A DNA stretch of 64,000 nt, from assembly GCF_000002075.1 (NCBI RefSeq), contig NW_004797578.1:464493-528492 (forward strand). The letters run 5' to 3'. Below, in pieces: positions 22,287 through 37,500 of this stretch. This DNA is from Aplysia californica. Lineage: Eukaryota. The notes under the pieces are model-generated. The model saw nothing but the letters and a program-made list of their open reading frames with translations. It did no database searches and was not told the DNA's origin. The first letter of the stretch is position 1, and the number at the start of each line of letters is the position of its first letter. The position numbers and the translations under genes are program-made.

Positions 22287-22430
22287 ATGGCTGCCTCCAT
22301 GAACAAGGTTGGAGTCTTGTCAAAGCCTTCTATTTTCCTGCGAATTCTTGGTCAGTCTGGCGCTTCACTTGTTACAATACGAGGACCTTTGTCTTATTGT
22401 CAGGGTGTTTTCATTTGTAGAAGTATTTCG
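22287..22430 (+). CDS. METTL17: METTL17 exon 1 (mitochondrial presequence-like)
   Basis: aaaATGgct MAASMNKVGVLSKPSIFLRILG...CRSIS |gtgagt; basic, no acidic residues. Confidence 0.8.
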
Positions 22431-25400
22431 GTGAGTTTTGTCATGGATCTGTTGTGTTCTGTCATTATCATCAGTGGACATCAGTAGTACACAGTACAGT
22501 ACAGAGTGTCAGTGTCAGTCAGCAGCAGCAGACTACAAATTATGTACTAGATTTCTAGATCTAGAATCTAGATCTAGACTCTAGAATCTAGATCTAGATA
22601 CATTACAGCTCCTACATTTAACAAGATGATAAGATCTACTCTGAACACATGCGGTTAAACGTAGAACGACGTACCTGCCTGATTGGCTGCTTATTTTAGT
22701 AATGTGATGTCGTCACATCCTGGGATACCCACAGACTGTCTCTAGAAGCTAGAAGACCGCAGAGATATAAAAGATTCTCTACTACACTACACACTACACG
22801 ATCTATGGAGATACCGCATGGTATGACATGTTGGGTCAGGGGCTTGACCTATTATCCGTATCGATGTGTTTCGTACGGTAAAACTTCACACTTGCGGCTA
22901 ACTACAGCACGTCAGCCATGCTCTGGTGATGGAAGATCGCTTAGATCGATGATGCTCAGAACAGTAAGAACGCCGTTGCTTGAAACTGAAACAACACGGT
23001 AAATGCAAAGACAATAAAGCACGCGAAAATTTCTGTAAAGAGGCCCAGAGATTACCCCCACCCCCCCACCCCACGGGCCCGATAAACAATGCTCAGAAGA
23101 GATGAGCAGCAGCATCATCGGAGCACCGCATCATGTCACATTACCAGTACATCTCCTGGTAAAACAGCGCACCAAATGTCGTGCCATGGTAGGTATACAC
23201 GATTTTTGGTGCCATGCGGTTGGCTATGTTTAGATCATGTAGTCACGTGATCAGATGGGGTATCTTGGTCTGACGTCACTCAAGATGGCCGCCTTACCCA
23301 AAAATAGTTGGCGTCGTTCTCTGTTTAGTCGCATGTACTCTGAACTCACTGTTTTATTATTAAATTACATTATAAATATATATCCAGCCTAATTCTAATA
23401 GTATATATATATATATATCGTAAAACTATTCTGAGTTTTCTTAATTCTTTACTTACACTAGATCTAGACTATGACGTGTACCTCTACTTAAAGTTTTTAT
23501 TTTTAGTTCAATTAATTGGAGACAGGTTTGCTCTGTCTCTACTCTCACTCAGTCTCTCCAGTAGATATCTCTAGTAGGGCCAAGGGCGGGTTGTGTCTGG
23601 AAGAGGGACAGAGTAAGTCTCTTAACTTAGTTTACTATTAGAGCTTGTTTTAGTCTGACTGTGGTTAGAACAAAGTAAAATGAAATCCCCCGGTTTAGTT
23701 TTAATCTTATCAGATCTTTGCATGGGTCTAAAAGTTGGATGATTAACAGAATCATAAAAAGTCATACTTTTCTAGGCTCACGTCGAGACGTACACCATGC
23801 CATGTGATGAAATCTACAATCTTACACTTAGCCTGCACTGTAATGTGGGGGATGGGTGGTGTAACTCTAACAAAATTATGAGCAATTTGCAGGCAGGTTA
23901 CTGTCAGTTAATTTATGTTCTCGTGATCCTGCGACCTATGCATGCACCCAGTCAAAGAGCGGTTTTTAGTATAGCATGGTCCAAATAGAGAAACTTTTTT
24001 ATTACTAGATCGAGATTTTTTATAAAAAGTTGTTCGCTGTCCTGCAGAAGTGCGATGCAAAGTTTCATTGGCACAGGTAAATTAACAAAATGAGCTAGAA
24101 TTTTTTTAACATGGACAGACGAAGGTTAACAAGCTATTTAATCTTCTTAGGTCTTAGAGAGGAGTTTATCATAGTTTATGTACCTCTTTCTTAGTGATTC
24201 CTGTAGATTTCAGCATAATAATTCAACTTGGCAATGTTTTATTCAGATTTGGAGAATTTGGTTATTAAGGTAAGATTCGACTCTACTTTTGGGGGAGGGG
24301 GGGGTATTCCCCCAGAGGAATCGTGAGTGCAAAATGATAACAGTAAGAATATAGTACTACAATAAAAGACTGGTGATAGTCTAATCTGAATCATAATACC
24401 TAAACTCTCTAAGGGGGCTCTCGCGGTCTAGAGGTACGGAGTTTGCCTCTCATTCAATAGGTACCGGGTTAGAAAAATACCTGACAGCGACAGAAAATTT
24501 CATTCTCTAAAAAAAATATTTTTTTTTTTGTTTCAGTTATGTTAAATCAGATTTCAATTAATAATGTACTATTTTATATAAATGTGATTTTCCCATCTGA
24601 CTTTCAGGAGTCTCAGGCTGACACAGATGGCTTGCCGTTGAGCCACGTAATTACCAGAGAGAGCAAGGTGGATAGTTCAGTCGCCCAGCGACTTGAAGCA
24701 CGACAGGGTAGTGCTAATGAGTTCATCAAGTACAGAGGCCATGATGGGGTCATGAGGCGTACTCGGACACAGGTTCCCACTCGTTTGATCAAGGCAATGA
24801 AGATCTTGATGGAAAGTAAGACATGCAAAAAAAATTTGGTAAACAGATAGCTGCTTTTGTAAAACTGTTTCTTAATTTGAAATTTTGCTGTTCTCAAATT
24901 TGAATGTTAAGTTTGGAGCTAGTGTAGAATGGTACAAAAATTAAGAGGAAACAAAGTTGTAAAATATTCCTTGCATTTTATTCGTATAATCTTCTGTTCA
25001 TAAAAATTAAGTGAAAACTGCAGGGCCTACACTTTAAAATGTTGATTGCTTGTTATTTGTATAATCTTTTGTACACTGAGTGTGCCTTTGCACCGATAAA
25101 AGTTATTTGTCTTGTACTGCTGCCAAAAAAAAAAAATTATTTTGGTGTCTTCCTGCATTCTTCAAGATTTTGATTTTTCATTTATGCACTTTTATTGAGC
25201 TTCTTGTTACTTTAACTATAGTTTGTTTTTCTCTCTTACTTGCTGATTTCAGATTTTGTCTTTACTTTTTATTAACAGAGTACCCAATGGAATCAGTTAC
25301 AGCAAAGGCAGAACAGCTTGTTAAGTACCTAACACAAAGACAACCGCCCCTGTCGGATCAAGAAATAAATGATAAAGCAGTGGCAGTTGAAAGGAAATTG

Positions 25401-28400
25401 CTAGAAAAAGGTAAATGCAAAGATAGCCTTGGAGGCAAGCTAGTTTAGAGGTTAAGTGTATGATTCTCCATTATAAGGTTGGGGGTTAACACTTTCCACC
25501 CATGCATTGCACAGAGCACACAACGCTTGCCTTCACGGTCCAGGGTGCAGATGCGGTACATCAGTATGTGGTTAGTTGGTTTATTTCAGGAAAAGTGATC
25601 GAGTACCTATTTCACATTCAAGAAAAGAACAAGGGCAGGCCGAGGCGTGAGCCACAGACTGTGGAAGACCTCGTGAGTCGTGAGTGGCAGTCGGGGGGCA
25701 AGAGCATTGTCACTCGTCAGTGCAAGTTGGTCAGCGTATGGTGCTAGATAGGGACTGTAGAGTAGGCGGTCGCGTGAAATGTGAATTTGTGACTTCTTGA
25801 TGGACATCCTGCAGTTGTTGATTGCTACAAGAAGTGGGTGTTTATATTTAGACTACACAGTACTACACCTGTATCTCGGCAAAAATACCCCAACTAATAT
25901 CAAACTTTCTGTATACTGAGAAATTATTTAATGATGATCACATGTTCACCAAGAGAGGAATTAGAATCTGAACTGAAAACATTAGATCTAGCTCATTTTT
26001 CACCCGCATTCTCATCAAAGTGTAAGGGTAAAGCAGCATTGGTCTTCTACATTTTTCAAAAAAATTTTATTCCAGTTGTTGCATACATACTGATTTCAAC
26101 CTCAAAGGCCACACAAACCATTGAGAAAGGAAATTTAATTTTAACAAGTGCGCATGTCAAAAACGAGATCATTGCTACTACATTTTTTTTGCTATATCAC
26201 ACTGTCGCTCATCAGCGTCCCGTGGGGATAAGGGACGGCTTGTTACCGTCACCTATCGGCGTCCCGTGGGGCAAAGGGACGACTTCTTACTGTCGCCGAT
26301 CGATGTCCCATGGGGGCAAAGGGATGGCTTCTTACCGTCACCGATCGACGTCCCATGGGGGCAAAGGGACGACTTCTTACTGTCACTGATCGACGTCCCA
26401 TGGGGCCAAAGGGACAGCTTCTTTCCCTCATTGATCGGCGTCTTGTGGGAAAAAGGGATGGCTTCTTTCCGTCATTGATTGGCGTCTTGTGGTGAAAAGG
26501 GACGGCTTCCTACCGCTGCCGATCGGCGTCTTGTGGGGGCTAAGTGTTAAACTGTCAGTGCCAGCTGGTGGTTGTTAGTGTTCTTTTTGTCATTCCGACA
26601 ACCTGTTGACCCTTGTCATTGAAGTTTGGAAGTTGGTGGTTGGCGGATGCTCTGTTGTGGTTTGCTCCTTCTTTCCTATCAAACATCTATCATTTTTATC
26701 TACCCTCCTTCTTTTTTGTGTTTGTTACTCCCTTGTAACACCTCTAATCTTCGGCACTTATATGACCTAATTGTGTTGCAAGTGCTGTAAAACTCTTACA
26801 AAAAAAGAAGAAAGAAGTTTGGAGAAATTCTTCAAATTTAGTATGTTTGGAGTTCTTCATCTATATGAAACGTAAACAAAAGAAGATAATTCGTACATTT
26901 TTCCTTTACACAAATTTCAATTAAATATTTTGTATGTGTCTTTTGCAGATCCAAACAAGTTTGAAAATTTGAGTGGAGCTGACCTAGAGGATGCAATAGA
27001 TCAACACAGAAAAGCTGTTTTGTCAAGGCTACGAAAGACTATCTATAACTGGAAACCAATGAAGTATGTTTCATGAATATTCTTTTTTTTTCTTTTATCC
27101 GCCGCTTATACCCTTTTGGGTGTCGCGGGAAGAAAGAGACGTCTCTCTGTCGCCAGCTGGAGAGCTTGGGTCGGGGGATGCCGTGGGTGGTTAATGTTTC
27201 CCTGACTCCATCTATCCAGGTCTTTCTCAGTCGTCGTCTAGCCTTGTTGCCATCAAATTTTTTTATGTAGGCACGTTGTGCTGGATGGTGTGTTGTTAAT
27301 CGGTTTCGTGAAAATAAATGCCAAATTGTCTCCTTGTCTTCAAATTTAAAGTGTTTTGTAAAATTGTGTGTCCATGTTTGTGTGAATCAGTCCTCAACTT
27401 AGAACATATTTTTTGACAGGTCTACAGAAGACTCTCAAGATCTGGAAACCAGCAAAATACATTTCATGAATACTCTGATTCTGATTCATGCAATTCAAAG
27501 TGTGACTTGACTCTTATTGCATTACAAGCTACTGTTCAAATCACATTCAACCAATTAATGGGGCATTCTTGAACTTGGCCATGGCTTTTCAAAGATGGAT
27601 GTTCAATTTATAAGTTTTGCTCCTTAACTAGCCTTAAAGTATTGAAAGTGACATTAAACCTGCACATTTAAGAATTACTGGGATGTTGACTTGAGGTTGT
27701 ATCATGTGTAAAGAACTTGTTCTTGGCTGCATTTTATCTGACTGCAACCTTATGAAGCATGTCACTTGTCAAGAGACACAAAATGAAATGGTGGGTGGTT
27801 GGCGTGTGCTCTGGTGTGGTTTGCTTCTTCTTTCCTATCAAACATCTATCGTCCTTATCTCCCCTCCTTCTTTTTTGTGTTTGTTACTCTCTTGTAACAT
27901 CTCTGATCTTCGGCACTTATATGATCTTATTGTGTTGCAGTGCCATAAAACTCTTACTAAGACTAAATGAAATGAAAGTTAAAAAAGACATACAACAATT
28001 TTGATTGCCCCTCTTCACCAGATAGCCTACACATTGTAGTTATCCAACTTGTTGCAGCTTCAATAGTTTATCTAGTCAGGTTTCGTTTTCTGTAATGTTT
28101 TTGTTTGACAAGCTTCTTATTTTTTATACTTTGCTTCTGTTTCAGCTTTGATGCTTTCACCTCTTACACCTACATGGTTGGAAGGACGTCTTTTGACTTC
28201 TCTGTCATTATGCAGTGTTTTACAGAGGTATGTTCCTTGTACTTTTCAGTTGCTTTATCTTGCCAAGCTCAGTGTCATTTATGAGGAAAAAACAAAGGGA
28301 AATATGGCATAATCTATCTGAATGGATTAGACATCTTTATACTTATCATGCACAAGGCAGGAGTAGGCCACAGGAAACATGGAGGAGATGCGTGGAAAGG

Positions 28401-31400
28401 GATATGAGAAAGATGAAGCTCACTTGGAACGAGCTTGGAAGGATGGCCCAGGACAGAGATAAATGGAAGGAGCTTGTATGTGGCCTATACCCTGCCAGGG
28501 GTGAAAGGCATTGATGAGAAGATACTTATCGTTGTTCTTATCATTGCCCTCAGATATCAAAACGAGATCTGGACTTCCAGCCGTCCACTGTGTATCACTA
28601 TGGGTCAAAGGTCGGGGCCTGTGTCTGGTAAGTCAAAACTTTGCTCTCAATTGGTCGCTTTTAAGGACAAGTGGGCTATCCCGAAAAATGCTGTTTTGAG
28701 AAAATCGAAGGTAAAGTTTGTGCCCCTTGTTCGGTTTCGTTAAAAAACATGGAGACTTTTCTCGATAACCAAACAAATATATTCATCAATGAAACCAAAC
28801 TTTTCCTATAGGTAGGGCAATGCCCACTTTTGGTGCAGGTCAAGTTTTCTGGAACCCCCCCGGAATCTGGGTTAGCCCGCTTGTCCTTAAAAGCGACCAA
28901 TATTCTTTGTGACTTTCACTGTGTATAAAAAGCAGCTGGCAATATTAGTGCAATGTTTTAAATGCCTTGTCAACACACAGAAGTTGAGAATCTTTGTCTT
29001 TTGTGGGGTAGGAATTTTTCTCATCCTTCCTGGAAGTTCAAGTGTGGACACTGTATCTTTGTCAAGCTTTAGGCTATGGGTCTTGGAAAAGAGAACCGTC
29101 CATTCAGAATCATCTGACTATTCTTCAGTCAGACTCGACATATGAATGATGAGACTTATCAAACTCTCAGTGTGAAACATTGATGGGAAAGTCTGTGGGT
29201 GGAAACAGAGGAGATGTTTTTGTCATTTCTGTTTTTAACTGGTCAGAAAGTGGTCTTAATGAGATGCAAACACCGGTCACAATGGATTTAATTTAGACTG
29301 ATGCATGCCATTATCAGAACAAGTTCTTGGGAAGTACAAAGTTTTGACCATAGTTTGCCGACTGGACAGGCCACCCTTGATCCCACTTTGTACTTCTGGC
29401 CCTCTTGACCCCTCCCCGAAATTAGCTATTCATTGCCAAAAATGTCAAAGACAGAATTTTTCTTTGGCTCCCTCTTGGGCAGGTTCGACTGTAGTTTGCA
29501 AACAGAAATGTTCAAGTTAATATTGTGTTCAGTATCTTTTGTGTCAAATGCCTCATCACTACATGTTTCTTTGGGTTTGTAGGTATGCCCAACTTTTTTG
29601 TCTGTTGAGGTTAAGTATGGATAGGGATTTTCTTATGAAAATATTATATATGTGAGTTTAATTAATTAACAGAACTGTCTATCCATTTGCTTACTTCCTG
29701 ATATAAAGTTCTCTGTTGATGAAAAATCAAAATGAGCACATGTAGAAACTTATTCAATGCACCTAGTGGCTTATGTTGTTGAAAGTTTAACCTTTCTGTT
29801 TATATGTAAAAAAAGATATGAGTTTGATTTCCTACTGGGAAAAGTCTTTTGTACCTAGTACCTCCGTTATTCTGCCTGAATGATGTGTCTCCTCGCTAAC
29901 AAACATGACTGTACCCCCCGGGGTGGTGCTACTAACTGAAGTGTCTTTAGGCCATTCCCAAAGGGGGGACATTCTCATCTCGAGTTCTTATGCACAGTAG
30001 AATTGTAAATGGCCTGATTCATCAATTTCATGCTCGTAACTGCCTGAACTGCAACAGGGAACTGCTGCTTTTTTTTTTTTCCTAATCCTTACTATCGTCA
30101 TTTTCCTCTACTTCTTTTGTATGTTTGTCACACTCCTATGACCCGCTATTTCCGAGGTGCCTTGATAGTTGAAGCAGACTTTGTGCTGTTGAAGCTAGAG
30201 AGGTGACCAGAGTAAGTCTGATTCCCTGTTAGGACTTCTCTGTTGACACCCACCCCTTGGCGCTCATATGACCTAATGCAGTTGCGAGTACCGTAAAACC
30301 TTTTCTAAAACTAAAAACATGGCTGAAGCAACTCACCTAAATGATTTAAATTGTGTTGATGAGGGCAGAAAACATCTATCTATCACTTTCAATCATCACG
30401 CCTTTTGTCCTGCCTTCATTTTCAATCATCCCGCCTTTTGTCCTGCCTTCATTTTCAATCATTACGCCTTTTGTCATGCCTTCATTTTCAATCATTATGC
30501 CTTTTGCAATGCCTTCACTTTCAATCATTACGCCTTTTGTCATGCCTTCACTTTCAATCATTACGCCTTTTGTCGTGCAGGGCGGCTGACAAAACATGGC
30601 GGAGCATTGGAGAGCACTACTGTGTGGATAGTTCGTCCCACATGAGCACCATAGCAAGGCTGTTGCTGCAAGGTGAGCCATCTGTCCTTCCACTCGTCCT
30701 TGATCTTGATTGTCTTGAACAAACCCTTTTTGTGGGTGGTTGGCAGGTGCTCTGGTGTGGTTTGCTTCTTCTTTCCTATCAAACATCTATCGTCCTTATC
30801 TCTCCTCCTTCTTTTTTTATGTTTGTTACTCACTTGTAACATCTCTAATCTTCAGCACTTATATATGACCTTCTTGTGTTGCAAGTGCCGTAAAAGACAT
30901 ACTAAAAAAACCCAACCTCTTTTACCTGATGCTTTTATAAAAATGATCACAGCTGGATTTGTTGCCGCATTGTTCATTAAAAGAACCAGTTTTTCCAGAT
31001 GTCTGTGATAATAATAATAAATAAAAAGCATTTGTATAGCGCATATCCCCGCTCAACAGCAGGCTCTATGCGCTTTACACCATATTATTACCCCAGCAGA
31101 CCATAGGACACTCCGAAACATTCTCAGCTTCCCGGGAAACATACAGCGCAAGCAGCTGATTAGCACTCAAACACTAACAAACTGACAAGATCTTTCGCTG
31201 TCTATAGCCGGGTACCCATTCCCACCTGGGTGAAGTGAGGAAAATTCATGTAAAGTGCCTTTCCCAAGGACACAACGTCGGGCCCCTGACGGGATTCGAA
31301 CCCACGACCTTACGGTTGCGAGTCCGAGAGCCTAACCACTTCACAATTGCATGCAAAAAACTTTAGTTCAAATCACTTTGGGGAGTACTTTTTAGAGTCT

Positions 31401-31503
31401 TTCTGCTGGGATGTTGTATATATTTGAAAGGTTTTGAAAATGGGAATTCCAATGTAAAGCGCATTGAGCTACTTTTTTTGGAAATGCGCTGTATGAATTG
31501 TTA

Positions 31504-31549
<46 letters not shown>

Positions 31550-34500
31550 CCCCCCACTTGAGGTCAGTGCTGACAGTCAAGATCAAAGCAGCCTGTTTTC
31601 TAAACAACCTAAAATGTGTCAATGGGAGGGGGGGGGGGGGGGTATATATTCACAATCATTTTCTGTTTCCCTTGTCAGCCATGTCAGTCACAGACTTTCT
31701 TTTGTTTTGTTTCTCTGACACATTACATTATTACATAGCTGGATGCTTTCAGTCAATTTTCAAAAACTACGTTTTGATTACTTTAGTGTTGGCAAGTACT
31801 ATCAAAGTAGATATATCTTCAAACAAAATTATATCTGGGAATGTATCTTTTGAAGAAACCTTTTCACTTCATCAATGGCTTTTTTTCTGTTTCAGATGGT
31901 AACGAGCAGGAGACAGTGATGTCTATAAAGGGTGTCCACTTCAGACAGTTTGAGCCTAGCCCAAAAGAGGTAATTTTTTGTTTTGAAAAAAATATGTTTT
32001 ATTTACTGTGAGTGAAACTAATGATTGACTGTTGACTCTGTTACAAACACATTGTTTTTCGCGAGCATATTTTTCAGGAACTCGTGGAAAGCGGAATTTC
32101 TATCAATATGTGGCTAATAAAAGTTGTATTTCAACATGCGATACTGAAATAGTGTAGTTGTACATCGTTACATGTTAGCATTAGAGAAGGAAATTCTGGT
32201 GTGGTTTGCTCCTTCTTTCCTATCAAACATCTACCGTCCTTATCTCCCCTTCTTCTTTTTTATATTTGTTACTCTCTTGTAACACCTCAAATCTTCTGGC
32301 GCTCATATGACCTTATGCCTTATGCAGTTGCGAGTGCCGTAAAACCTCTACTAAAACAAACAAGTAGTATAAACTTTTCTAATGCTGCCAGTGTATTATT
32401 ACTTACTTGCTTTACATTTTCATCCTCTGTTGCCGTTAAGCGTCGAGGGGAGATGCAGTTTTCTATGGTAGGCCAGCTCTGCAGCTCTTTCAGTTGTGAT
32501 GTTATGTTTTCTTAGGGTTTCCTTGACACCCTCGATCAACCTTTTGCGTGGCCTTCCTCTTCCTTTATAGCCTGAGTGCTTGGTGTGGTAAGTTCTCGAG
32601 GCTGGCTGGTCAGGTGACATGCGTAACAGGTGACCAAACCATTTTATCCTCTGTCTTTCTATGTAAAGCAGGCAGGACTCAGTGCCGATAGCTGCTCTTA
32701 CTTCTTCATTTCTCTGCCTGTCTATTATTAAGTTTTATTACAAAACAAAATGATGATTCTTTCTTTGTCCAGAACAAGTTTTCCCTGGTGGTCAGCCCGT
32801 TCATGTTGATAGAACAACCCTCGGCCGAGGAGAGGATGAACCTGGTCCTCAGCTTGTGGGAAATGACCGAATCCTACCTGGTGAGAAAGATTTTTTTTTT
32901 TGTAGAGGTCGGCGCTCGCAACTGCATAAGGTCATATAAGTGCCGAAGATTAGAGGTGTTACAAGAGAGTAACAAACACAAAAAAGAAGGAGGGGAGATA
33001 AGGACGATAGATGTTTGATAGGAAAGAAGAAGCAAACCACACCAGAGCACCCGCCAACCACCCACTGAGAAAGTTTGGCTGTCAATAATTCTATGGCCCT
33101 GTGCTGTAAAACTCTTACCAAACTAAACTACTTTATTACTGTGAGTGATTGCTCAAGAGTCATTTGTTTAATTGTTAGTTATAGTGTGTTAGTAAGTTCT
33201 GATTTTTTAATATACTTATATACATTTTTTGTGGGTGGTTGGCGGGTGCTCTAGTGTGGTTTGCTCCTCCTTTCCTATCAAACATCTATCGTCCTGATCT
33301 CCCCTTCATCTTTTTCATGTTTGTTACTCTCTTGTAACAGCTCTAATCTTCTGGCGCTCATATGACCTTATGCAGTTGCGAGCGCCGTAAAACCCCTACT
33401 AAAACTAAAACTTATATAAATTTGTTATTTATTTATTTTTTTTACTGTCCTTTTATGTATAGTTAATGTATGGTTGTGAAAGCTCTTCTTTATGTGGTTG
33501 AGCTGGTTTTTCTGTGATACGTTTTTTCTTGTGTGAATGATTATGTGATTGGTGTAAAGCGTTCAGAGCCTATACTTGTATGGGATAGAGCGCTATATAA
33601 ATGCAATCTATTATTATTATTATTATTATTATTATTGAGTACTGTAAAACTAAAATAATCTGCTGCCACTGAAATTTGGCTGTTATCATCACGCTGACTT
33701 CCTGGAAACTTCCATTCAGCAACATAGACAAAGCAACAAAGATTTGCAAGTGCCGTAAAAAAGCAAATATGACCTTATGAGGTTGCAAGCACTGTAAAAA
33801 CTTTTACCAAACTCATACTCAAACTGGAATGACTCACAATGATATCTTTTTTTTTTACATCTTCAGGTACTGATTGAAAATGGGACAACAGCAGGATTTA
33901 ATTTGATAAATGAAGCGAAGGAATTTCTTTTGAATGTAAGTAGCCTTCTAAATTAACTCCTTTTCTCCAGCTAGCCGCTCCCAGTGGCTCGCGGTGGGAA
34001 CAGCTGTGCCGATGAGTCGCTGGCAGCTACTTTGGCATATTTCTTTACAACAACTTTGATGTCAAATTACTTTTTGGCAATTGCCGAAAACGGATTTTGT
34101 ACAGGGAGTTAATTCATAAGATAAAGAACTCTCAAAATAAGTTCATTTTAAAAAATTTAATGACCAATTTAGTGACGTATACGTCAATTATAGATTTCAT
34201 GTCAAAAGAAGGCCCCGACATAGTGGGTTTACCCCCCTTGGAGATGAAAAGATAAGCAGAAACTTTTATGATGAATGGGCCCCAATGACTATGTTCATGT
34301 TTTTGTTGTTATCGATCCAGCAACATCTGGGCTCTTGCCCTTCTGTCCAATGCCATGTAGACTATGTTCATAAACCGACACATGCTTGACATTTTTGTGA
34401 ATCTGACTTAGCTAACTACTTGGCCACTGTTTTTGACATGAAGCTAAAGGTTTGATGTCTGTGATGAGTGGGGTTTCAGTACAATATGATAGTTTTCTTC

Positions 34501-37500
34501 TACTTCATTCTATTTTTTTTTCTCTCTTGTAATACCTCTGATCTTCTGGCGCTCATATTACCTTATGCAGTTGCAAGCGCCGTCTCTGCTAAAACAAAAA
34601 ACATTTCCGTGAAAAATAACCCAAAACGAGTTCGTACAGCTTTAAAGTGACCCTCTACTGAATTTTCCAGGTTTCTCAGGTGGATGGCACAAGCCGGTTC
34701 CAAGGTCACGTGTTTGCACCAGTAAGACCCAAGCTTTTTTCTTATTTTTTAAAGAACTGATTCGGTTTATGTTTGACTGTGATTGTTTTTTTCTCAATTT
34801 AGTGGCGGGTGGTTGACGGGTGCTCTGGTGTGGTTTGCTCCTTCTTTCCTATCGAACATCTATCGTCCTGATCTCTCCTCCTTCTTTTTTATGTTTGTTA
34901 CTCTCTTGTAACACCTCTAATCTCCGGCATTTATATGACCTTATTATGTTGCAAGTGCCATAATACTCTTACTTAAACTAAACTAAACAATTTAGAGCCA
35001 CCTTTCTGCTTCGGATGCAGCATTACCTCCGTAGTTGACTCATGATGGCAAACGATTAATTCTTAAGATGTGATGTCTTTTTTTCGATGTAATGCGCATT
35101 GAGCATTTTTTTAGATAATGGAAATATGCTGTATAAATGCTATTTATTATTATTATTATTGTTGTTTCATTGCTGAAACATAATGCATGATGTTTTATTT
35201 TTTATTTTGACGTATCATAGTGCCCGCATGACAAGCCATGTCCCAAGCTGAGGGAACAGAAGATGCCTTGTCTCACAGAGTGTGTCCACAAGGAAGTCGA
35301 TATCAAGTCCAGTAAATTAGTAAGTCAATCTACCCAGTCAAGTAAATTAGTGAGTCAATGTACCCAGTCAAGTAAATTAGTGAGTCAATCTACCCAGTCA
35401 AGTAAATTAGTGAGTGAGTCAATCTACCCAGTCAAGTAAATTAGTAAGTCAATCTACCCAGTCAAGTAAATTAGTAAGTCAATCTACCCAGTCAAGTAAA
35501 TTAGTGAGTCAATGTACCCAGTCAAGTAAATTAGTGAGTCAATGTACCCAGTCAAGTAAATTAGTGAGTCAATCTACCCAGTCAAGTAAATTAGTGAGTC
35601 AATCTACCCAGTCAAGTAAATTAGTGAGTCAATCGACCCAGTCAAGTAAATTAGTAAGTCAATCGACCCAGTCAAGTAAATTAGTAAGTCAATCTACCCA
35701 GTCAGGTAAATTAGTGAGTCAGTCTACCCAGTCAAGTAAATTAGTGAGTCAATCTACCCAGTCAAGTAAATTAGTGAGTCAGTCTACCCAGTCAAGTAAA
35801 TTAGTGAGTCAATCTATCCCTAGAAATCCTGTCTCCTCACATTTTTATGTATACCTTCCTGAGATGACGTCATGAATATTTGCGCCAGTTGCAATTCAGA
35901 TCTTGTTGCTCTACCAGGCGTAATAAATACTTATGGCTCGGCACTTATTTGATCTTATTGTATTGTTGCAACTGCTGTAAAACTCTTACTAAGACAACCC
36001 CCCCCCCACCACCACCATCATAAAAAAAACACCAAAAACCAAAAAACTAAAGGCTTGGATAGGCAGAAGAGGAAAGGAAAGGTGTTGAAGAAAAATCACA
36101 AAGGTACTGACTGATCAATATATAGGAAGGTGAATCTGAAAATTGCATTTGCAACTGACTGTAGAGCACACTTTACTCAGTCATGTGTAACTCAAGATCA
36201 CGGGACCCAAGAACATGATTTAACAAAATTATTTACAGCATAACTTTCTTGATTACCTTTAAAGGCTGTTATTTCCGATAAAATTAAACATTGATCGCTT
36301 TTTTTTTTTTTCAGAGTGAAAAGCCCAAGAAAAATGCAAGATATTCATATGTTATTCTGAAAAAAGGAGTAAGAGAAGAAGAGGGTGAGTTTGTGTGGTG
36401 GTGAACAAAATCTATGAAACTTGGTGAAATGTCCTGTCTTTGCCTCGGTTCTTTCGCAATGTCTGTCTTACTTTTTACTAGCACTCTGTTGAGATTATTG
36501 TATCTTTGTTCTTCTTTTTATTGAAACAAATGAGGCAAAAAAAGGAAACAAAAGGTTTAAATGAAAAGTATAAGTTTGTAGTCTTGTGTGGTATCTTGCT
36601 TGTCAGGTTTGCCCTTTGTTGAGAGAGAGAAGTAGTGATTTGGGGTAGTGGTTGGGGGGGGGGGGGGGGGGGAGCATTTAAAAAGTTGCAACGGGTCCCA
36701 AATCATTATTTTCTGTATAGTTTTGCTATTTAAGATGTACCTTCAATAAAACATCCTCTGTGTACGGCTTGATAATTATTTCTTTATACAAATGACCTTT
36801 CACTTCATATAGTTAGCAATGTTGACGTTTGATATATCTGTAAATTAGAATTAAAAACTGTTCATTGCATAAGTTTACCTTTTGTGTCAGCTGATTGAAA
36901 CTATGCACCACCCACATTCCTAATGGCATACCCCCCCCCCCTTCACTTTTTGTTCAAGTCCTTGATCTGACACAGACATCAACAATTATGGTCTGCAACT
37001 CATTTCTTCCCTCAGGGGCTCTGAAAAAGAATTATTATATTATCCTGTTTTTTTCCTGTCATCTGTTTGTTCAGGTTCTCTAAGTGATTCATTCTTGGGG
37101 GTCTACCTCTGCCTCTTTTGCCTTCTCATTTCAATCTGCTAGTGTGGTTTTCTAGTTGTCTCATTTGACCTTGTCCTTGACCTTTCTGTGAACAGAGTTT
37201 GGCTGGCCGCGGGTTCTACGTCAGATCAAGGCCAAGCGCCACACCCACTGCCATCTGTGCCTGCCCTGTGGTCAGCTGCAGCATGTGGTCATCACTAAGG
37301 GCAAGTTTGACAAGTAAGTTCTATCCTAGTCACAGCTTGGCTTATTTGTGAGGCAAGCTGTTCAAATGTTTTAAGCCCAGAAAGTGCAGTTTTCCAGGAG
37401 AGAAAAAACTTTCATTTTTTAAACTATTGCACCTACGTTATGCATCTTTTCTGTGGGTGGTTGGTGGGTGCTCTGGTGTGGTTTGCTCCTTCTTTCCTAT

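What the first reader, a model, noticed from the sequence alone, without database searches (positions are those of the whole stretch)
35305..35820. Minisatellite multiplies the METTL17 exon 12 splice donor 17 times
Seen: the 30-bp unit spans the exon/intron junction (agtaaatta|gtRagt), giving near-identical donors at 35320, 35350, 35380, 35410, then 35444 through 35804. Donors 2-4 would add 1-3 in-frame VSQ(S/C)TQSSKL decapeptides just after the Fe-S Cys cluster. A 4-nt GTGA duplication in unit 4 shifts the frame (TAA at 35437), so the 13 distal donors give premature stops. Inference: a VNTR that could tune the productive/NMD isoform ratio of an essential mitoribosome factor, or a natural test of proximal donor choice.
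Basis: partly seen in the sequence, partly recalled or inferred. Interest (0 to 1): 0.7.

Follow-up and report, generated by a model that had tools for sequence, protein, structure and literature searches.

The report
Repeated splice donor in sea-hare METTL17
In the sea hare's METTL17 gene, a 30-base piece covering the end of exon 12 and its splice signal is repeated 16 more times into the intron, but the few spliced transcripts seen all use the first signal, so the spare copies are likely silent, as in similar repeats known from human and lancelet genes.

Summary
A single-locus 30-bp minisatellite (35305-35818) straddles the exon 12 donor of Aplysia METTL17 and gives 17 TTA|GTRAGT sites. Donors 2-4 are in frame; donors 5-17 lie behind a stop at 35437. 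The tuning idea is not supported. Spliced contigs from three studies, the NCBI protein and 4 raw reads (counted from bin depths) all end exon 12 at 35319, and no junction from the array was seen. Donor 1 also gives the loop length kept in 9 of 9 heterobranch gastropods. The array is present in two DNA-like runs, and contig depth suggests about 15 and about 30 units, so it is probably a VNTR. RNA depth is low, so a leak of a few percent, or one hidden by NMD, is not excluded. One correction: the insertion point lies between the third and fourth predicted Fe-S ligands, not after them. This is a new member of a known kind (human F7, CBS, 6-16, LMNB2, PDGF; amphioxus 'mirages'), most likely a neutral slippage product silenced by first-donor choice. 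This scan has noted the same arrangement before on other DNA, including this genome.

The parts
22299..38720 (+). METTL17 coding span, 15 coding exons, 539 aa (P0001)
   Evidence: Exon chain translates exactly to P0001; PF09243; exon 14 matches human METTL17 385-417, E 7.7e-6
35221..35319 (+). Exon 12 (99 nt, residues 380-412; predicted Fe-S ligands C380, C386, C396)
   Evidence: X4 contig aligns exactly to 35221-35319
35305..35818 (+). 30-bp minisatellite whose first unit spans the exon 12/intron 12 boundary; about 17 units
   Evidence: TRF, unit list, single locus, present in DNA-like runs X1 and X2
35317..35325 (+). Donor 1, TTA|GTAAGT, the authentic and only observed donor
35347..35415 (+). 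In-frame pseudo-donors 2-4 (GT at 35350, 35380, 35410); would give 549, 559, 569 aa; not seen used
   Evidence: zero depth at 35329-35372 in four runs
35410..35417 (+). GTGA duplication in unit 4; shifts the frame and adds a donor-like site at 35414
35437..35439 (+). First in-frame TAA when exon 12 is extended; donors 5-17 would give a 451-aa product lacking C457
35441..35809 (+). Pseudo-donors 5-17 (35444-35804) plus CAG|GTAAAT at 35706; all behind the stop; not seen used
   Evidence: no joint to 36315 listed
35301..35304 (+). TATC microhomology, left end of the likely founding duplication
   Evidence: sequence shows directly
35815..35818 (+). TATC microhomology, right end of the array
   Evidence: sequence shows directly
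36315..36384 (+). Exon 13 (70 nt); its acceptor is joined to 35319 in X5 and X8 contigs
   Evidence: Loose-end letters before 36315 equal window 35290-35319
37196..37313 (+). Exon 14, carries the predicted fourth Fe-S ligand C457
   Evidence: GT..AG joint skipping 811 in X5 and X8

Best explanation
A 30-bp piece that spans the METTL17 exon 12 donor is tandemly repeated about 17 times, the spliced transcripts seen use only the first donor, and the other 16 are likely silent pseudo-sites in a likely neutral, probably length-variable minisatellite. Shown: the array, its single locus, its presence in two DNA-like runs, and donor-1 splicing in every record seen. Inferred origin: a slip between two TATC motifs 30 nt apart duplicated the boundary; one intronic copy gained three substitutions and was then amplified and homogenised. 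Inferred choice: exon 12 is defined from its acceptor (35221) to the first donor reached, giving a 99-nt exon. The copies pair with U1 no better than donor 1, lie only 30 nt apart, and lack the purine-rich exon sequence upstream of the duplicated part, so the first site wins, as shown experimentally for the human F7 array.
For:: X5 (1203-nt contig, depth 76.9) and X8 (1387 nt, depth 19.1) carry window 35290-35319 directly before 36315; one contig per run accounts for all exon 13 depth; no joint from 35760-35820 to 36315 is listed. In X5 an unspliced intron 13 contig of depth 5.7 (4-7% of mRNA depth) survived assembly, so branches of that size can be visible there; the X4 contig (depth 7.5) aligns to exactly 35221-35319; bin depths 2.47 (X21), 0.82 (X23) and 6.18 (X4) equal 3, 1 and 7.5 x 42/51, i.e. 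records that stop at 35319; depth at 35329-35372 is 0 in all four runs. P0001 uses donor 1 and its 90% cluster has one member. L397-Y422 is 26 residues in 9 of 9 heterobranch gastropods and 21-25 in 12 of the other 13 rows. U1 duplex -5.6 for donor 1, -5.7/-5.6 for 15 copies, -6.5 for donor 4. Precedent: F7 uses only the most upstream of identical donors and adding monomers does not change this (PMC1557585); amphioxus mirages do not disturb splicing (PMC3087553).
Against: RNA depth is low: 4 raw reads in 3 runs (X22 had none at the donor) bound distal use only to below 53%; contigs drop rare variants; PTC isoforms would be depleted by NMD. X5 holds a 60-nt contig (depth 17.6) inside the array while unique intron 12 has no depth, so some RNA or DNA covers the array; it passes two donor-like sites unspliced. 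Human 6-16 and CBS arrays do use two downstream copies (PMC1557585 Introduction). In HeLa tests, the intron-proximal of two donors wins at separations of 45 nt or more (PMC3413131 passages), and donors 3-17 are 60 nt or more from donor 1. Donor 4 (-6.5) and the 35706 site (-8.3) pair better with U1 than donor 1. Output tables were cut (36 joints and 1143 loose ends not shown; 90 loose ends).
Confidence: 0.85

Rival explanations
1. Leaky nearest copies (6-16/CBS type): donor 1 dominates, but donors 2-3 are used in a few percent of transcripts and add 10-20 Ser/Gln/Lys-rich residues at a predicted beta-hairpin tip. The products are tolerated noise, not regulation.
For: 6-16 and CBS use two downstream copies (PMC1557585 Introduction). 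Donors 2-4 are in frame and match U1 as well as donor 1. The junction falls in the loop between predicted strands 398-405 and 414-429, where an insert might fold. Sensitivity here is only about 4-7% at best.
Against: Zero depth at 35329-35372 in four runs; unbroken donor-1 contigs in X5 and X8; no longer isoform in the P0001 cluster; loop length fixed in 9 of 9 heterobranchs.
Confidence: 0.1
2. Regulatory VNTR: distal donors are used at a rate set by array length, and their PTC transcripts are destroyed by NMD, so allele length tunes METTL17 dose.
For: 13 donors give a stop 192-552 nt before the last junction and lose C457. Contig depth suggests about 15 units in X1 and about 30 in X2. NMD would hide the products in steady-state RNA.
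Against: No junction from the array in any run. The NMD-immune donors 2-4 are also unused, which points to first-donor choice rather than decay. F7 splicing is independent of monomer number (PMC1557585). No sign of conservation could be tested or was seen; the GTGA frame shift is a single mutation in one unit.
Confidence: 0.04
3. Assembly artefact: the array does not exist in the animal.
For: Short tandem arrays can be mis-assembled, and the copy number in G000 may be wrong: X2 depth implies more units than the 17 assembled.
Against: DNA-like runs X1 and X2 hold high-depth array contigs joined to the unique 3' flank (35783-35989 and 35787-36665). X1's summed depth ratio of 42.5 is close to the 47 simulated for the assembled allele. 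Units carry ordered internal variants.
Confidence: 0.01

Closest known systems
Human F7 intron 7 37-bp VNTR (Borensztajn et al. 2006, PMC1557585; read parts 1-4 of 6: abstract, Introduction, Results, most of Discussion)
   Same: First monomer spans the exon-intron boundary; the donor is reiterated identically in the intron; only the most upstream donor is used; some unused copies are in frame.
   Different: Here 30 bp and about 17 units (F7: 37 bp, 5-9 units); 19 exonic letters are duplicated (F7: 4); mollusc, not mammal; whether the spare sites work when donor 1 is lost is untested here.
Human CBS intron 13, IFI6 (6-16) intron 2, LMNB2 and PDGF intron 4 minisatellites (seen only as described in the Introduction of PMC1557585)
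   Same: Donor-spanning arrays of 10-25 units; CBS has 15-20 repeats, close to this array.
   Different: CBS and 6-16 use two extra copies, LMNB2 and PDGF only the authentic one; this locus so far behaves like LMNB2, PDGF and F7.
Amphioxus 'mirages' in Adh3 and globin genes BflGb6/BflGb9 (PMC3087553; passages of one section)
   Same: Invertebrate tandem repeats spanning exon-intron boundaries, units from 10 bp, length-unstable, reported not to disturb splicing, with end units left out of homogenisation.
   Different: Different phylum and gene; BflGb6 is on the acceptor side; those cases have RT-PCR and two-haplotype data.
METTL17/Rsm22 mitoribosome assembly factor (PMC11046306; passages on the Fe-S ligands)
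   Same: Host gene; four cysteines matching human C333, C339, C347, C404 are present (C380, C386, C396, C457).
   Different: Nothing shows the protein itself is altered by the array.

Membership tests
Donor-spanning minisatellites (F7 IVS7 type, amphioxus mirages) | Tandem array of minisatellite-sized units | tested here: met
   Period 30, 16.9 copies, 94% matches
Donor-spanning minisatellites (F7 IVS7 type, amphioxus mirages) | First unit spans the exon-intron boundary, so the donor is reiterated in the intron | tested here: met
   17 AAATTA|GTRAGT sites; donor 1 is the end of exon 12
Donor-spanning minisatellites (F7 IVS7 type, amphioxus mirages) | The most upstream donor is the authentic, dominant one | tested here: met
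   3 of 3 RNA-like contig runs, 4 of 4 raw reads, P0001 and conserved loop length; low depth
Donor-spanning minisatellites (F7 IVS7 type, amphioxus mirages) | Copy number varies between alleles | tested here: inconclusive
   Summed contig depth over flank is 42.5 (X1) and 82 (X2) against 47 simulated for the assembly; one X2 unitig is 16x flank against 4x expected. This leans to yes, but it is a rough depth estimate, not a spanning read.
Donor-spanning minisatellites (F7 IVS7 type, amphioxus mirages) | Pseudo-sites become active when the first donor is inactivated | not testable with these tools
   Needs a minigene
Regulated unproductive splicing (AS-NMD) elements | An alternative PTC-bearing isoform is produced | tested here: not met
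   No junction from donors 5-17; steady-state RNA only, low depth
Regulated unproductive splicing (AS-NMD) elements | The alternative site would place a stop more than 50-55 nt before the last junction | tested here: met
   192-552 nt; the 50-nt rule is recalled and assumed to hold in molluscs
Regulated unproductive splicing (AS-NMD) elements | Isoform rises on NMD inhibition, and the element is conserved across species | not testable with these tools
   No NMD-inhibited runs listed; no relatives' genomes held
METTL17/Rsm22 | PF09243 domain and four conserved Fe-S cysteines | tested here: met
   PF09243; C380 in 21 of 22 rows, C386 in 21 of 22, C457 in 22 of 22, and C396 aligned by eye in the printed block; human ligands from PMC11046306

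The most novel reading that the evidence does not exclude
A hypervariable donor array (about 15 to 30 units between animals) leaks splicing to its distal donors in proportion to its length, and NMD removes those transcripts, so allele length sets the dose of an essential Fe-S mitoribosome factor in wild sea hares.
Probability: 0.05. Interest if true: 0.6.

Novelty: new member of a known kind. Interest (0 to 1): 0.15.

Why it matters
As it stands it matters little: it is one more case showing that first-donor choice holds against many equal copies, now in a mollusc. Its modest value is the built-in contrast of 3 in-frame and 13 stop-containing copies at 30-nt spacing; that the in-frame copies also appear unused argues for position-based choice rather than NMD or frame surveillance. 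If a length-dependent leak were found, it would be a common natural dose dial on an essential mitochondrial gene.

Tried and rejected
Dispersed repeat or transposon origin: rejected; the exact unit pattern is at one locus and the weak DNA hits are at 67-74% identity. An alternative authentic donor inside exon 12 or the array: rejected; only 35320 reproduces P0001 and the conserved loop length. Selection against strong in-frame decoys (donors 2-4 are all GTGAGT, donor 1 GTAAGT): not supported; U1 energies are equal and 12 of the 16 copies are GTGAGT anyway. RNA structure masking: donor 1 is predicted more open (0.73 unpaired) than donors 2-4 (0.38-0.50) but similar to donors 5-6 (0.63-0.68); this is a weak, single-window fold and was not relied on. 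No listed holder was on record as RNA; X4, X5 and X8 are RNA by the tool's guess, supported by exon-exact or GT..AG spliced contigs. Run X22 had no read at the donor. One search was swamped by reads of a SINE-like repeat in intron 11, so its joint and loose-end tables show nothing on exon 12. Literature: a search for Aplysia + minisatellite + splice listed one unrelated paper; this covers only the open library and does not show the locus is unpublished.

Full report
What is in the sequence. TRF reports a 30-bp array at 35306-35816 with 16.9 copies and 94% matches. Seventeen AAATTA|GTRAGT sites stand at 35320, 35350, 35380, 35410 and 35444-35804; 5 are GTAAGT (donors 1, 5, 6, 12, 13) and 12 are GTGAGT. 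Unit 4 is 34 nt because of a GTGA duplication, and the exon 12 frame runs through three decapeptides to TAA at 35437. The unit pattern occurs 14 times in G000, all in this array, with 0 control hits.

The gene. A 40-codon query from exon 14 found one protein, P0001, labelled by NCBI as Aplysia californica METTL17; the same exon matches human METTL17 in the PDB. Fifteen coding exons at 22299-38720, all 14 introns GT-AG, translate exactly to P0001. Exon 12 is 35221-35319 and joins 36315 in phase 0. Human METTL17 binds a 4Fe-4S cluster through C333, C339, C347 and C404 (PMC11046306, passages); the matching residues here are C380, C386, C396 and C457. The junction (L412/S413) therefore lies between the third and fourth ligands. 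An AlphaFold2 model (mean pLDDT 82) puts it in the loop of a hairpin formed by strands 398-405 and 414-429. Donors 2-4 would give 549, 559 and 569 aa; donors 5-17 would give 451 aa without C457, with the stop 192-552 nt before the last junction.

Which donor is used. Of 24 listed runs I laid 8, in two calls on stretches flanking the array. Upstream (33850-35372): an X4 contig of depth 7.5 aligns to exactly 35221-35319 and leaves. In the bin 35278-35328 the mean depths are 2.47 (X21), 0 (X22), 0.82 (X23) and 6.18 (X4), which equal 3, 0, 1 and 7.5 records covering the 42 exonic bases only. The next bin, 35329-35372, has depth 0 in all four runs. These read counts are derived from bin depths, not from a junction table. 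Downstream (35760-37330): in X5 (depth 76.9) and X8 (depth 19.1, a different species label but identical exon letters) the letters before 36315 equal window 35290-35319, which only donor 1 gives. One contig per run explains all exon 13 depth, and none of the 11 listed joints runs from the array to 36315. In X5 an unspliced intron 13 contig at depth 5.7 survived, so branches of 4-7% can be visible, though assembler clean-up makes this a rough limit. P0001's 90% cluster has one member, so no longer isoform is on record. The stretch L397-Y422 has 26 residues in 9 of 9 heterobranch gastropods and 21-25 in 12 of the other 13 rows (one row is a truncated isoform with 4), so donor 1 is the ancestral one.

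Results against this reading. Four raw reads alone bound distal use only to under 53%. NMD would deplete products of donors 5-17. X5 has a 60-nt contig of depth 17.6 inside the array while unique intron 12 has no depth; it is one full cycle of the unit and passes two donor-like sites unspliced. I read it as low background pre-mRNA or DNA collapsed over many units, but it could reflect a small read-through class. Donor 4 (-6.5 kcal/mol) and a new CAG|GTAAAT site at 35706 (-8.3) pair better with this genome's U1 5' end than donor 1 (-5.6); the gene's other correctly placed donors range from -4.3 to -10.1 (the row for exon 2 was off by one base and is left out). Several output tables were cut.

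Is the array real and variable? X1 and X2 cover 30 of 30 bins and look like DNA. Both have contigs joining the last unit to the unique flank. X1 differs from the window at listed letters and X2 does not, so they are probably different animals. Summed contig depth in the array bin over flank depth is 42.5 (X1) and 82 (X2); a de Bruijn simulation of the assembled allele gives 47. That scales to about 15 and 30 units. One X2 unitig of the commonest unit type is at 16 times flank depth, against 4 in the assembly. This suggests a VNTR, but it is a depth estimate under my own assumed mapping rules, and extra copies outside the assembly or a collapsed assembly would look similar.

How it likely arose and works. 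TATC occurs at 35301-35304 and again at 35815-35818; removing 484 nt (16 units plus GTGA) leaves one donor between two TATC motifs 30 nt apart. A slip between them would found the array (inference). All copies share three changes from the true exon end (-10, -15, -17), which suggests that one intronic duplicate drifted and was then amplified or homogenised (inference). For donor choice, the simplest account is exon definition with first-come priority. Donor 1 closes a 99-nt exon (the gene's internal exons are 51-208 nt), while copies would give 129-583 nt. The copies are mostly no stronger, lack exonic U1 pairing, and do not include the purine-rich stretch at about 35288-35296 (a possible enhancer; inference). 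In HeLa assays the downstream site takes over as spacing grows beyond about 30 nt and wins at 45 nt or more, mainly with strong sites (PMC3413131, passages); the short spacing and modest strength here fit donor-1 use for the nearest copy but do not fully explain silence of the far ones. That the NMD-immune donors 2-4 are also unseen favours position over decay.

Comparison with what is known. PMC1557585 (parts 1-4 of 6 read) describes the same arrangement in human F7: only the most upstream identical donor is used, copies work once it is mutated, and adding or deleting monomers changes nothing. Its Introduction lists 6-16 and CBS (two extra copies used) and LMNB2 and PDGF (only the authentic one). 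Amphioxus 'mirages' are the invertebrate precedent (PMC3087553, passages). Earlier notes of this scan list the same class in this genome (e1-9588257) and in at least seven windows of other animals; these are unchecked notes and serve only to show it recurs. The window itself is rich in minisatellites, and another abuts the exon 7 acceptor of the same gene. No supplements were consulted.

Verdict. Observation confirmed; functional interpretation not supported by the RNA available; a new member of a known kind. Best explanation 0.85, low-level leak to the nearest copies 0.10, regulatory VNTR about 0.04-0.05. Interest 0.15.

Noticed in passing
window 30383-30578: A 33-bp x 5.9 minisatellite ends two bases before the METTL17 exon 7 acceptor (30581). 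It repeats the pyrimidine tract but contains no AG in 196 nt, so it duplicates the tract without duplicating the acceptor.
   Followed up: partly
window 22287-22298: An in-frame ATG 12 nt upstream of P0001's start would add MAAS, a typical start for a mitochondrial presequence (recalled); the NCBI model may begin four residues late.
   Followed up: no
window 35703-35711: An A>G change in unit 13 creates CAG|GTAAAT at 35706, the best U1 match in the array (-8.3 against -5.6 for the real donor); no use seen.
   Followed up: partly
window 36666-37224: Run X5 holds intron 13 contigs (depth 5.7-10.3), one running into exon 14: intron retention, pre-mRNA or DNA carry-over.
   Followed up: no
window 34500-34600 and 34800-34990, with many similar copies (e.g. 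26640-26800, 27790-27960, 33230-33410, 37450-37640): A very abundant SINE-like repeat family fills the introns; polyA reads from other loci pile on it at depths in the thousands on both strands.
   Followed up: no
window 26211-26544: A GC-rich 44/45-bp x 7.4 minisatellite in METTL17 intron 3, not at a splice site.
   Followed up: no
window 38590-38720: The Aplysia protein ends in an acidic tail (about residues 497-539) with pLDDT under 50 in the model.
   Followed up: no
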